NCBI GenBank assembly: GCA_951406725.2
Contig: OX597823.1
Coordinates: forward strand, 7,502,001 to 7,566,000
DNA: 64,000 bases
From: Octopus vulgaris
Taxonomy: Eukaryota
Reading direction: 5' to 3'
Position numbers: made by a program. Positions 44,113 to 57,543 of the stretch are shown here, piece after piece (positions within the stretch are counted from its first letter, which is position 1; each line of letters starts with the position of its first letter).

Positions 44113-47100
44113 ATAGTGATTATATAGTGAGCTGGGGGAATTGTTTGCACGTTGGATGAAGTTCTGAGCTGCAACTGCATTTCACCCATCACTGCATTCT
44201 GAATTCAAATTTATCATCAAACATTTTCATCAAACATTTATCATCAAACATTTTCATCAAACATTTTCATCAAACATTTTCATCAAACATTTTCATCAAA
44301 CATTTTCATCAAACATTTTAATCAAACATTTTCATCAAATATTTTCTTCAAACATTTTCATCAAACATTTCCATCAAACATTATCATCAATCATTATCTT
44401 CGAACATTTTCATAAAACATTTATCTTCAAACATTTTCATCAAACATTTTCATCAAACATTTTCATCAAACATTTTCATCAAGCATTTTCAACAAATATT
44501 TTTATCAAACATTTTCATCAAACATTTATTATCAAACATTCTCCTCAAACATTTTCATCAAACATTTTTCATCAAACATTTTCATCTAACATTTTCATCA
44601 AACATTTTAATCAAACATTTATCAACAAACATTAATCATCAAACATTTATCATCAAACATTTTCATCAAATCAATAATCATCAAACATTTTAATCAAACA
44701 AATTTCATCAGACATTTTCATCAAACATTATCATCAATCATTATCTTTGAACATTTTCATCAAACAATTATCATCAAACATTTTCATCAAACATTTTCAT
44801 AAAACATTTATCATCAAATATTTTCATCAAATATTTTCATCAAACATTTTCATCAAGAATTTTCAACAAATATTTTCATCAAACATTTTCATCAAACATT
44901 TTCATCAAACATTTTCATCAAACATTTTCATCAACCATTTATCAACAAACATTAATCATCAAACATTTATCATCAAACCTTTACTACAGGGTGGTCAACC
45001 AATGGAAAACCATTTCTAATAATTGCTGTACACCGCTTACCATATTTCAGACTGCTTACCAGAAATATGTGTGGCTAAAACTCGTGTTTGGTGAACATAT
45101 TGAATATATTTATTTGTTCTTTCTCGAGCCAAACATTTTCATTAAACATTCTCATCAAATATTTTTTTAAACATTTATCATCAAACATGTTCATCAAACA
45201 TTTTCATAAATCATTTATCATCAAATATTTTCATCAAACATTTTCATCAAGAATTTTCAACAAATATTTTCATCAAACATTTTCATCAAACATTTTCATC
45301 AAACATTTTCATCAACCATTTTAATCAAACATTCTCATCAAATATTTTTTTAAACATTTTCATCAAACATTTTCATCAAACATTTCCATCAAACATTCTC
45401 ATCAAACATTTCCATCAAATATTATCATCAAACATTATCTTCAAACATTTTCATGAAACATTTATCATCAAACATTTTCATCAAACATTTTCATCAAATA
45501 ATTTATTAAAACATTTTCATCAAACATATTCGTCAAACATTTTCATCAAACATTTAACTCAAATATTTTATTCAAATATTTTCATCTAACATTTTCACCA
45601 AACATTTTCATCAAAAATTTATTCAAACATTTTCATCAAACATTTTTCATCAAACATTTTAATAAAGCATTTTCAACAAACATTTTCATCAAACATATTC
45701 ATCAAACATTTTCATAAAACGTTTTCATCAAACATTTTAATAAAACATTTTCAACAAACATTTTCATCAAACATTTTCATCAAACATTTTCATCAAACAT
45801 TTATTATCAAACATTCTCCTCAAACATTTTCAACAAATATTTTCATCAAGCATTTTCATCAAACATTTTCATCAAACGTTTTCATCAAACATTTTCATCA
45901 AACATTTTAATCAAACAAATTTCATCAGACATTTTCTTCAAACATTATCATCAAACATTATCTTCGAACATTTTCATAAAACATTTATCTTCAAACATTT
46001 TCATCAAACATTTATCATCAAACATTTTCATCAAACATTTTCATCAAACATTTTTCATCAAACATTTTCATCAAACGTTATCATCAAACATTTTCATCAA
46101 ACATTTATTATCAAACATTCTCCTCAAACATTTTCATCTAACATTTTCATCAAATATTTTCATCAAACATTTATCAACAAACATTAATCATCAAAAATTT
46201 ATCATCAAACATTTTCATGAAACATTTTCATCAAACATTTATTATCAAACATTCTCCTCAAACATTTTCAACAAATATTTTCATCAAGCATTTTCATCAA
46301 ACATTTTCATCAAACGTTTTCATCAAACATTTTCATCAAACATTTTAATAAAACAAATTTCATCAGACATTTTCTTCAAACATTATCATCAAACATTATC
46401 TTCGAACATTTTCATAAAACATTTATCTTCAAACATTTTCATCAAACATTTATCATCAAACATTTTCATCAAACATTTTCATCAAACATTTTTCATCAAA
46501 CATTTTCATCAAACGTTATCATCAAACATTTTCATCTAACATTTTCATCAAATATTTTCATCAAACATTTATCAACAAACATTAATCATCAAACATTTAT
46601 CATCAAATATTTTCATCAAACATTTTCATCAAACATTTATCAACAAACATTTTCATCAAACATAAAAAATCAAACATTCTCCTCAAACATCTTCATTACA
46701 CATTTTCATCAAACATTTTCATCTAACATTTTCATCAAACATTTGCATCAAACATTTTATCAACAAACATTAATATAAGGTGGTGAGCTGGCTGAAACGT
46801 TAGCACACTGGGCAAAATACTAAGCCGTATTTTGTCTCTGTCTTTACGTTCTAAGTTCAAATTTTGGTGTGGTCGACTTTGCCTTTCATCCTTTTGGGGT
46901 CGATAAATATCAAAGGAAGGCTAACTGGGAGGATAGCTTTTGTATGTGGCAGTTGCTCGGGAGCTATAAATAACACTGCAAATGATGATATATCATCATC
47001 ATCGTTTAGCGTCCGTTTTCCATGCTAGCATGGGTTGGACGGTTCTACTGGGGTCTGTGAAGCCAGAAGGCTTCATCAGGCCCAGTCAAATCTGGCAGTG

Positions 47101-56100: not shown

Positions 56101-57543
56101 CCTTCCTAATGCCAACCACTCCAAGAGTGTAGTGGGTGCTTTTTACGTGCCACCCGCACAGGTGCCAGACAGAGCTGGCAAACGGCCACGAACGGATGGT
56201 GCTTTTTATGTGCCACCAGCACGAGGGCCAGGCGAGGCTGGCAACGGACACGAAACGGGGCGGTGCTGGCAACGGTCGCGAAACAGAAGGTTCTCTTACA
56301 TGCCACCAGCACTGGTAACACATCTGCAATTTCCATTGATCGATTTCGATTCTGATCCTCACTTGCCTCAACAGGTCTTCACAAGTAGAGATTTGTGTCC
56401 CAAGAAGGGAAGGTATGCATACGTAGGCTGGCTCCATCCCATGTAGAAGGCCGCGGGTTATGGACTCACTTGNNNNNNNNNNNNNNNNNNNNNNNNNNNN
56501 NNNNNNNNNNNNNNNNNNNNNNNNNNNNNNNNNNNNNNNNNNNNNNNNNNNNNNNNNNNNNNNNNNNNNNNNCACATACATATGGAAGTGAGAGAAAAAA
56601 ACCGAAGAAATTCTTTGTTTTGACAGGTATATATATACATATATACATATATATATACATATATGCATATATATACATACATGGATATATATATACATAT
56701 ATATATATAAACATATATATAACATATATAAATACATACATAAATATATAAATACATACATATACATATATATATACATATACATATACGTACATATATA
56801 TACATATATATATATACATACATATACATATGCATACATATATACATTCATACATATATATACGTACATATACATATATATTTATATATAAATATACATA
56901 TACATATGTACATATATATACATATATATATACATACATGCATATACACACACATACATATATATACATACGTATATGTATACATATATATACATGTTAG
57001 CATGCAGGGCAAAATGCTTAGTGGTATTTCGGCTGCCACTACGTTCTGAGTTCAAATTCCGCCAAGGTCGATTAAATAAGTACCAGTTACGCACTGGGGT
57101 CGATGCAGTCCATTTGTCTGTCCTTGTTTGTCTCCTCTGTGTTTAGCCCCTTGTGGGTAGAAAAGAAATATATATATTCAAAGTTACTCCAACCGCAGAA
57201 CGGGCGCTGCTGCGTGGTGCCAAGGATTCCAACATCACCATCAAAATACAGGTCCAGATACTGCAACAGCTAGAGGACCACAGCTTTTCAACATCCTCCC
57301 TAAATGCCTGAGAGACTTACATGGTGTGGATGTGGGTTTCTTTAAAACTAAACTGGATCTCTTCTTGTTGGGAGTCCCAGATGAACCTACCTCACGACAG
57401 GAGACACGGATGCGGGCAGCAGCATATCCCTTGTTGATCATGCCACGTATCAGAGGTGGATTCACAAACTAGTGTGGCTCATTCAGCGGTGGTGCCCCAG
57501 CATGGCCGCGGCCTTCGGGCTAAAACATTTTTAAGGATTTTAA

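What the first reader, a model, noticed from the sequence alone, without database searches (positions are those of the whole stretch)
44211..56472. Satellite-embedded 2-kb captured cassette amplified as a ~4.46-kb composite tandem unit
Seen: segment 38423-40458 (SINE B head, RTE 3' end, SINE A, unique DNA) reappears inside the 13-bp satellite at 46774, 51230 and 55762, with periods of 4456 and ~4530 bp. Junctions show only short microhomology (TATA at left, TA-scale at right) and no TSD. The three copies share variants absent from the donor. Inference: one templated capture (BIR/template switch or eccDNA reinsertion) followed by unequal crossover or rolling-circle amplification. This looks like a nascent macrosatellite whose true copy number is hidden by the gap.
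Basis: partly seen in the sequence, partly recalled or inferred. Interest (0 to 1): 0.75.

Follow-up and report, generated by a model that had tools for sequence, protein, structure and literature searches.

The report
Young composite tandem repeat inside satellite
A 2-kb piece of nearby DNA was copied once into a 13-bp satellite and then multiplied with its satellite flanks as a 4.46-kb tandem unit, which is a clear but ordinary example of how large composite repeats arise.

Summary
Segment 38423-40462 recurs at 46774, 51230 and 55762, the last copy cut by the 100-N gap, at 99.0-99.4% identity inside a 13-bp ATTTTCATCAAAC satellite.

All three copies have identical junctions and share 8 substitutions and one 4-bp indel against the donor. 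That means one insertion, then amplification.

Whole units are near-identical, including position-specific satellite variants: 2 substitutions in about 4.46 kb. I located the amplification breakpoint at 45261/49716, in phase within perfect monomers.

New here: the same satellite holds an older 157-bp capture (44975-45131) copied from 43337-43493, with 4-nt and 2-nt junction microhomology.

There are no target-site duplications, terminal inverted repeats or tails. The cassette is collinear with its donor, which argues against reinsertion of a circle.

Best reading: DNA-templated break repair from nearby sequence, then unequal exchange between the flanking satellite blocks. The contig breaks inside unit 3, so copy number is unknown. 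An assembly artefact cannot be excluded without reads.

This is a new member of a known kind (composite satellite or macrosatellite), in an octopus-like genome. Interest is modest.

The parts
38423..40462 (+). Donor segment (2040 bp; the right end is 40458 if the last 4 nt are assigned to the satellite)
   Evidence: Self-BLAST. Junction contexts. It sits in non-satellite DNA, whereas the copies interrupt the satellite.
38426..38558 (+). 5' fragment ('head') of a dispersed SINE-like repeat. The cassette starts 3 nt upstream of its 5' end.
   Evidence: 12 paralogous alignments in the window end at 38556-38558. An alignment of 10 copies puts the shared 5' end at AAGG(T/C)GG. No Rfam tRNA hit at E<=1.
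38641..39374 (-). 3' end of a non-LTR retrotransposon: ORF C-terminus at 39132-39374, then a 3' region with a 63-bp tandem at 38801-38920
   Evidence: ORF listed. Homologues at 44-90% identity, 2 of 5 named, both from Octopus bimaculoides. Tail paralogues. TRF. Family (RTE) not verified.
39623..40076 (+).
   Evidence: 6 paralogues in the window at 81-88% identity.
43337..43493 (+). Donor of the second, older captured fragment
   Evidence: 94.3% identity to 44975-45131 and the only other match in the window. It spans unique DNA plus the first 22 bp of a dispersed repeat (43472-43733 matches 84-358).
44209..44974 (+). 13-bp satellite, left block outside the amplified unit
   Evidence: TRF. Only about 80% identical to the other arrays.
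44975..45131 (+). Captured 157-bp fragment inside the satellite, with 9 mismatches to its donor
   Evidence: Junction microhomology is AAAC on the left and CA on the right.
45132..45260 (+). Satellite between the small insert and the amplification breakpoint
   Evidence: 25 of the 26 differing columns between 45132-46773 and 49590-51229 lie at or left of 45260.
45261..49715 (+). Composite unit 1 (4455 bp): satellite 45261-46773, cassette 46774-48815, satellite 48816-49715
49716..54173 (+). Composite unit 2 (4458 bp): satellite 49716-51229, cassette 51230-53273, satellite 53274-54173
   Evidence: It differs from unit 1 by a 1-bp T-run indel and a 2-bp TA indel.
54174..56472 (+). Composite unit 3, partial: satellite 54174-55761 (2 substitutions; +71, +5, -1 and -1 bp) and cassette 55762-56472, cut by the gap
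56473..56572 (.). 100-N assembly gap. It hides the rest of the array and its right border.
   Evidence: The sequence after the gap has no satellite or cassette.

Best explanation
This is a young composite tandem repeat (a nascent macrosatellite) in an octopus-like genome.

Step 1, older event. A break or stalled fork in a 13-bp, almost G-free satellite was repaired by copying 157 bp from 1.6 kb upstream.

Step 2, later event. A second break in the same satellite was repaired by copying 2.04 kb from 8.3 kb upstream. This was DNA-templated, in direct orientation, with the donor retained and junctions of 0-3 nt microhomology. It fits synthesis-dependent or microhomology-mediated template switching, or capture of a copied fragment.

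Step 3, recent event. The cassette now lay between two blocks of the same satellite in direct orientation. An out-of-register homologous exchange between the right block and the left block duplicated a 4455-bp unit made of satellite, cassette and satellite. The 4.46-kb units then gave long perfect homology for further unequal exchange.

Shown by the sequence: a single insertion, whole-unit duplication, the breakpoint position and phase, and the order of events.

Inferred: the repair pathway of the capture, unequal exchange as the amplifier, and more copies hidden in the gap.
For: Single insertion: the 40 nt of satellite left of the cassette and the 50 nt right of it are identical in every copy seen. 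The copies share 8 substitutions and a 4-bp indel against the donor, with 0 substitutions among copies.

Unit-wise duplication: units differ by 2 substitutions and indels of 2, 1, 1, 71 and 5 bp over about 4.46 kb. Satellite monomers themselves match at only 80-82%, and unrelated satellite stretches align at 83-87%.

Breakpoint: 45261-46773 equals 49716-51229 except for one T-run indel. The 129 bp to the left carry 25 differing columns. The junction is in phase and lies at a run of perfect monomers.

DNA-level local copy: the cassette and the 157-bp insert both span junctions between unique DNA and repeat fragments of the nearby locus. There are no target-site duplications and no terminal inverted repeats. 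The 157-bp insert has AAAC and CA microhomologies.

Real elapsed time: at 38756, 7 of 7 paralogues carry the copies' C, so the donor mutated after the copy was made. All 3 donor-T/copy-C sites are CpG in the copies.

Order of events: 9/157 mismatches versus 8/2040, Fisher p=5.8e-7. 8/2040 versus 2/4456 between units, p=0.002.

Array continues: the contig ends inside cassette 3, and nothing after the gap matches.
Against: No reads were available, so the tandem copies could be mis-assembled. All unit-specific differences except a 2-bp TA indel and one T-run indel sit in the third unit, next to the contig end. That could reflect poor consensus there.

The left junction of the cassette shares only 1 nt and the right 0-3 nt. 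This fits blunt ligation of a free fragment as well as template switching.

The cassette starts 3 nt from a SINE 5' end, a coincidence that a DNA-repair model does not predict.

The higher mismatch of the 157-bp insert could come from error-prone copying rather than age.

Single-strand folding gives no sign that the satellite stalls forks.

Unequal exchange, replication slippage and rolling-circle reintegration all predict the same in-phase junction.
Confidence: 0.62

Rival explanations
1. Assembly artefact. Only one cassette, or a different number, exists in the genome, and the tandem units are a false expansion at a contig end next to a scaffold gap.
For: The contig stops inside the third unit at a 100-N gap. 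Units 1 and 2 differ only by a 2-bp TA indel and a 1-bp T-run indel. The larger differences cluster in the last unit, near the contig end.
Against: All three units lie within one contig and are not split across the gap. Unit 3 carries 2 substitutions and a 71-bp satellite indel that identical read pile-ups would not create. The cassette differs from the donor at 8 sites, one of them shown to be a donor-side mutation, so at least the insertion itself is real.
Confidence: 0.12
2. The capture step was ligation (end joining) of a free linear DNA fragment released from the nearby region, for example from over-replication or fork breakage. It was not polymerase template switching.
For: Microhomology at the cassette junctions is minimal: 1 nt on the left and 0-3 nt on the right. 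The donor is intact.
Against: The 157-bp insert has 4-nt and 2-nt microhomologies. Both donors lie within 8.4 kb, on the same strand and in cis, as expected for switching to a nearby template. Sequence alone cannot separate the two routes.
Confidence: 0.2
3. Amplification was by a circle. Recombination between satellite monomers excised a 4.46-kb circle, which replicated by rolling circle and reintegrated.
For: The in-phase junction within perfect monomers is what a circle closed by homologous recombination would give. Units are almost identical.
Against: Nothing distinguishes this from unequal sister-chromatid exchange, which needs fewer steps. For the capture step itself a circle is disfavoured, because the cassette ends coincide with the donor ends with no permutation and no internal circle junction in any copy.
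Confidence: 0.12
4. RNA-mediated capture. A transcript starting at the SINE head read through 2 kb and was reverse-transcribed into a break in the satellite.
For: The cassette starts 3 nt upstream of the SINE 5' end.
Against: There are 19 runs of T>=4 on the plus strand, the first at offset 57, which would stop RNA polymerase III. There is no tail, no LINE or SINE 3' end at the right border, and no target-site duplication. The 157-bp insert has no such boundary. Rfam finds no tRNA-like hit in the head.
Confidence: 0.04

Closest known systems
Composite elements / composite satellites of the complete human genome (for example the TELO-composite, beta-composite arrays of beta satellite with LSau, and HSat1B made of AT-rich repeats plus Alu fragments)
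   Same: The repeating unit is built from a satellite plus several TE fragments and is arrayed head to tail. [quoted passage not shown] Examples come from 10.1101/2021.07.12.452052 (passages).
   Different: Here the array is very young and the donor of the non-satellite part still lies 8.3 kb away. Only 2.5 units are visible, and the genome is a cephalopod's. No epigenetic or transcription data exist.
Macrosatellites such as D4Z4 (recalled, not read here)
   Same: Kilobase-sized tandem units contain satellite-like and TE-derived or captured sequence. Unequal exchange is presumed to drive the copy number.
   Different: Copy number, polymorphism and any coding or regulatory content are unknown here. 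No ORF of note was found in the cassette.
Templated insertions and microhomology-mediated template switching (FoSTeS/MMBIR, synthesis-dependent repair; recalled; a search listing only for PMC11724301 and PMC7954356)
   Same: The donor is retained, the insert is a direct copy of nearby sequence, and junctions have 0-4 nt microhomology. There are no transposon hallmarks.
   Different: This is a germline-fixed event seen only as an end product. The pathway is not observable, and the cassette junctions have less microhomology than is typical.
TE tandem dimers as seeds of satellites (PMC5932611; title and start of abstract only) and composite satDNA monomers from 'TE graveyards' (PMC12628747; passages)
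   Same: Non-satellite, TE-bearing DNA becomes part of a tandemly amplified unit through unequal exchange.
   Different: The seed here is not a double TE insertion. It is a copied genomic segment placed between two blocks of an existing satellite, which supply the homology.

Membership tests
Composite element / composite satellite (sensu T2T repeat annotation) | [quoted passage not shown] | tested here: met
   The unit holds the 13-bp satellite, a SINE head, a LINE 3' end, (TA)n and a dispersed repeat of about 450 bp. Definition from 10.1101/2021.07.12.451456.
Composite element / composite satellite (sensu T2T repeat annotation) | Units arranged as a head-to-tail tandem array | tested here: met
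   2.5 units at 45261-56472, with periods of 4455 and 4458 bp between breakpoints. This holds in the assembly only and is not validated by reads.
Macrosatellite | Kilobase-scale unit | tested here: met
   4.46 kb.
Macrosatellite | Many copies, with copy number polymorphic among individuals | not testable with these tools
   The array runs into the 100-N gap. No reads, no other individuals and no eukaryotic genome collection were available.
Templated insertion by template switching (MMBIR/FoSTeS/SDSA-like) | The insert copies a template elsewhere and the donor is retained | tested here: met
   Both donors are intact at 38423-40462 and 43337-43493.
Templated insertion by template switching (MMBIR/FoSTeS/SDSA-like) | Microhomology at both junctions | tested here: inconclusive
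   157-bp insert: 4 nt and 2 nt. 2-kb cassette: 1 nt and 0-3 nt.
Templated insertion by template switching (MMBIR/FoSTeS/SDSA-like) | Point changes clustered near breakpoints from error-prone synthesis | tested here: inconclusive
   6 of the 8 substitutions lie in the last 580 bp. However, at least one difference is a donor-side mutation, and the test is post hoc.
LINE/SINE retrotransposition or transduction | Target-site duplication and a 3' tail or partner-LINE 3' end at the insert's 3' border | tested here: not met
   No duplication of flanks. The right border lies in unique DNA.
DNA transposon / Helitron-type capture | Terminal inverted repeats or characteristic termini, plus a target-site duplication | tested here: not met
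   No inverted repeat pairs the cassette ends among the 25 longest of 49 pairs. No target-site duplication.
eccDNA reintegration (capture step) | Circle junction inside the insert, or ends permuted relative to the donor | tested here: not met
   All copies are collinear with the donor end to end.

The most novel reading that the evidence does not exclude
This almost G-free 13-bp satellite may be a recurrent sink for cis-templated capture. Two independent events copied sequence from within 8.4 kb upstream, in the same orientation, at different times. That would point to a locus-specific, replication-coupled template-switch process that repeatedly seeds non-satellite DNA into the array. Unequal exchange would then turn such seeds into macrosatellites. 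If this is common in cephalopod genomes, it would be a general route to composite repeats that can be read directly from donor and copy pairs.
Probability: 0.25. Interest if true: 0.55.

Novelty: new member of a known kind. Interest (0 to 1): 0.3.

Why it matters
This is a clean, datable snapshot of how a macrosatellite is born. The donor, two capture events, the exact insertion junctions and the first amplification breakpoint are all readable within 18 kb.

The 8 sites that tell donor from copies give a direct read-depth assay for the hidden copy number. They also flag an assembly gap caused by a tandem array.

It does not reveal a new kind of element or mechanism.

Tried and rejected
- **Rfam:** a gathering-threshold scan of the whole window gave only one tRNA-like hit at 5219-5290, far from the finding. 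ARAGORN found no tRNA. An E<=1 scan of 38300-40600 gave only weak miRNA-like hits on (TA)n and one other hit far below its threshold, and no tRNA-like hit for the SINE head.
- **Pfam on 4 LINE-like ORFs:** one weak Exo_endo_phos hit below the curated cut-off, outside the cassette, and nothing for the cassette ORF.
- **ESM Atlas on the 80-aa ORF:** unnamed clusters only, not informative.
- **Inverted repeats at the cassette ends:** none.
- **Single-strand DNA folds of satellite stretches:** -0.3 to -5.9 kcal/mol, with the best z-score -1.99. There is no convincing hairpin that would explain fork stalling.
- **Long near-identical blocks inside the satellite other than the composite duplication:** none at >=93% identity and >=90 bp. 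There is only a loose periodicity of about 438 bp.
- **Further non-satellite inserts of >=18 bp:** none except a 22-bp variant that is repeated with the unit.
- **Literature search for the 13-mer in six rotations or strands:** 12 papers, each with one unrelated occurrence and none about a satellite, judged from the listing only. SINE motif strings: 0 papers. Octopus or cephalopod satellite searches returned nothing specific.
- **Polarising the substitution at 39885:** ambiguous, because it lies in microsatellite-like sequence.
- **Rejected reading, the satellite grew around a pre-existing duplicate:** it would need two independent expansions of the same 13-mer with matching variants.
- **Rejected reading, reverse direction of transfer:** the copies interrupt the satellite, while the donor lies in ordinary DNA.
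Full report
**Observation.** The window has one N run, 56473-56572. TRF reports a 13-bp satellite (consensus ATTTTCATCAAAC, 80-82% matches) at 44209-46763, 48817-51219 and 53275-55751. Self-BLAST shows that 38423-40462 recurs at 46774-48815 (99.3%), 51230-53273 (99.4%) and 55762-56472 (99.0%, cut by the gap). The start-to-start periods are 4456 and 4532 bp. Matches of 2 kb at 99% identity are far beyond chance.

**Content of the cassette.**
- A SINE-like head at 38426-38558. 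Twelve paralogous alignments in the window end at 38556-38558, and an alignment of 10 copies places the common 5' end at AAGG(T/C)GG.
- A minus-strand non-LTR retrotransposon 3' end at 38641-39374. Its ORF C-terminus is at 39132-39374. The longer-protein search gave 5 hits, of which 2 are named, both from Octopus bimaculoides, at 69% and 90% identity.
- A (TA)n tract.
- A dispersed repeat at 39623-40076 with 6 paralogues at 81-88% identity.
- Unique DNA up to 40462.

I did not verify the label 'RTE'. Rfam finds no tRNA-like hit in the SINE head. The Octopus hits, together with my recollection of the SINE sequence, indicate an octopod genome.

**One insertion, then amplification.** The 40 nt of satellite left of each cassette, and the 50 nt right of the two complete cassettes, are identical. 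A four-way alignment shows 8 substitution columns and one 4-bp (AT)2 indel that separate the donor from C1 and C2. C3 covers 2 of those 8 sites and shares both. Among the copies there are 0 substitutions, only a 2-bp TA indel in C1 and 2-bp and 3-bp deletions in C3.

The whole stretches 46774-51229 and 51230-55761 differ by 2 substitutions and indels of 2, 1, 1, 71 and 5 bp. By contrast, unrelated parts of the satellite align at only 83-87%. The position-specific satellite variants were therefore copied together with the cassette.

**Amplification breakpoint (new).** The first satellite block, 44209-46773, matches the inter-cassette blocks almost perfectly only in its right 1.5 kb. Between 45132-46773 and 49590-51229 there are 26 differing columns. 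Twenty-five lie at or left of 45260/49715, and one is a T-run indel at 45344.

The unit is therefore 45261-49715 (4455 bp). It consists of 1513 bp of left satellite, the cassette, and 900 bp of right satellite. Unit 2 is 49716-54173. Unit 3 starts at 54174 and is cut at 56472. The junction is in satellite phase and abuts a run of perfect monomers. This is what a homologous, out-of-register exchange between the satellite blocks flanking the cassette would give.

**A second, older capture (new).** A k-mer profile shows one more non-satellite stretch in the first block. Segment 44975-45131 (157 bp) is 94.3% identical to 43337-43493, on the same strand, and this is its only other match in the window. 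The donor piece spans unique DNA plus the first 22 bp of a dispersed repeat (43472-43733 matches 84-358). It is therefore a copy of the local locus and not a transposon. Its junctions share AAAC on the left and CA on the right with the satellite. It lies outside the amplified unit.

**Junctions of the 2-kb cassette.** In 12 of 12 uninterrupted occurrences the left-flank word is followed by TCAT. In 12 of 12 the right-flank word is preceded by CATTTAT. So the left junction shares 1 nt, not TATA. The right junction shares either TAT with one A>T change, or nothing. There is no target-site duplication and no terminal inverted repeat. No tail is present.

**Timing and polarity.** The 157-bp insert has 9 mismatches in 157 bp, against 8 in 2040 bp for the cassette (Fisher p=5.8e-7). 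Cassette-to-donor divergence also exceeds unit-to-unit divergence, 8/2040 against 2/4456 (p=0.002). At 38756, 7 of 7 paralogues carry the copies' C, so the donor changed after the copy was made. All three donor-T/copy-C sites are CpG in the copies. The capture is thus a real and not very recent event. The amplification is much younger, or else the units are kept uniform by conversion.

**Mechanism of capture.** Both inserts are direct-orientation copies of sequence within 8.4 kb upstream, with donors retained and short or absent microhomology. This fits repair of a break or collapsed fork in the satellite by priming on a nearby template and then rejoining (SDSA-, MMBIR- or FoSTeS-like; these names are recalled). 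Ligation of a copied free fragment fits almost as well for the 2-kb cassette.

A reinserted circle is unlikely for the capture, because every copy is collinear with the donor and shows no permutation. An RNA route is unlikely. There are 19 T>=4 runs on the plus strand, the first at offset 57, with no tail and no target-site duplication. Even so, the cassette does start only 3 nt upstream of a SINE 5' end, a coincidence I cannot explain.

The satellite's plus strand is about 1.2% G, 90 of 7310 bases. Single-strand folds are weak, so I have no positive evidence that the array stalls forks.

**Mechanism of amplification.** Once inserted, the cassette lay between two direct blocks of the same satellite. 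Unequal exchange between them duplicates the intervening unit, and later exchanges can then use 4.46 kb of homology. Replication slippage, or a rolling circle followed by homologous reintegration, would leave the same in-phase junction. The sequence cannot separate these. The satellite also shows a loose periodicity of about 438 bp, and internal blocks reach 91-94% identity. It has therefore grown by multi-monomer duplications before.

**Artefact?** All units lie in one contig. Unit 3 has its own 2 substitutions and a 71-bp indel, and the insertion itself is backed by a donor-side mutation. Nearly all unit-specific differences, however, sit next to the contig end, and I had no reads. I give a false or mis-counted array about 0.12. 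The sequence after the gap (56573 onward) has no satellite or cassette. The right border of the array, and any further units, are therefore hidden.

[quoted passage not shown] It resembles beta-composite arrays and HSat1B (10.1101/2021.07.12.452052, passages). It also resembles the composite satDNA monomers discussed in PMC12628747 (passages). TE dimers as satellite seeds (PMC5932611) I saw only as a title and the start of the abstract. D4Z4, Smith's unequal-crossover model, MMBIR and FoSTeS are recalled and were not read.

Searches for the 13-mer, for SINE motifs and for cephalopod satellites found no description of this repeat. The 13-mer search returned 12 unrelated single occurrences, judged from the listing. 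The SINE motif search returned 0 papers. These searches cover only the held library, and supplements were not consulted.

**Verdict.** This is a new member of a known kind, and a tidy example of a macrosatellite at birth with two local captures. Interest is about 0.3.

**Unchecked.** I could not check read support, copy number, polymorphism, other genomic copies of the satellite, or related species. No eukaryotic sequence collection was available.

Noticed in passing
window 38423-38426: The left end of the duplicated segment lies 3 nt upstream of the 5' end of a SINE-like element. My rough guess, which no call computed, is that chance would give this a few percent of the time. No mechanism is assigned.
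   Followed up: partly
window 39885-40459 (and the copy equivalents): 6 of the 8 donor-versus-copy substitutions fall in the last 580 bp of the 2040-bp cassette. All three donor-T/copy-C sites are CpG in the copies, which suggests CpG decay at the donor locus.
   Followed up: partly
window 44209-46773, 48816-51229: The satellite has a loose higher-order periodicity near 438 bp (autocorrelation 0.46-0.47). It also has internal blocks at 91-94% identity against a background of 83-87%. Its plus strand is about 1.2% G.
   Followed up: partly
window 37740-38220, 40475-40946, 41254-41617: The donor is bracketed by two direct copies of one SINE-like family (86% identical) and a third, inverted copy. 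Their ends do not coincide with the cassette ends, so they do not explain the capture.
   Followed up: partly
window 1670-1935, 37687-37970, 38801-38920: The SINE/LINE-tail family carries internal 62-65-bp tandem repeats.
   Followed up: no
window 35683-37218 (minus strand): Long LINE-like ORFs lie just upstream of the donor. One has a weak endonuclease/exonuclease/phosphatase match (E=0.0019, below the curated cut-off).
   Followed up: partly
window 59636-63994: A 4.3-kb (AT)n-type array runs to the window end. The whole window is unusually rich in AT, TG and ATT microsatellites.
   Followed up: no
window 5219-5290 (minus strand): This is the only Rfam hit above the gathering threshold in the window: tRNA-like, 33.1 bits. 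ARAGORN does not call it. It is probably a SINE head or a tRNA pseudogene.
   Followed up: no
proteins P0002, P0004: Two Octopus bimaculoides UniRef gene models (a helicase-domain protein and an XK-related protein) match the LINE tail ORF at 69-90% identity. This suggests that TE fragments were incorporated into those gene models.
   Followed up: no
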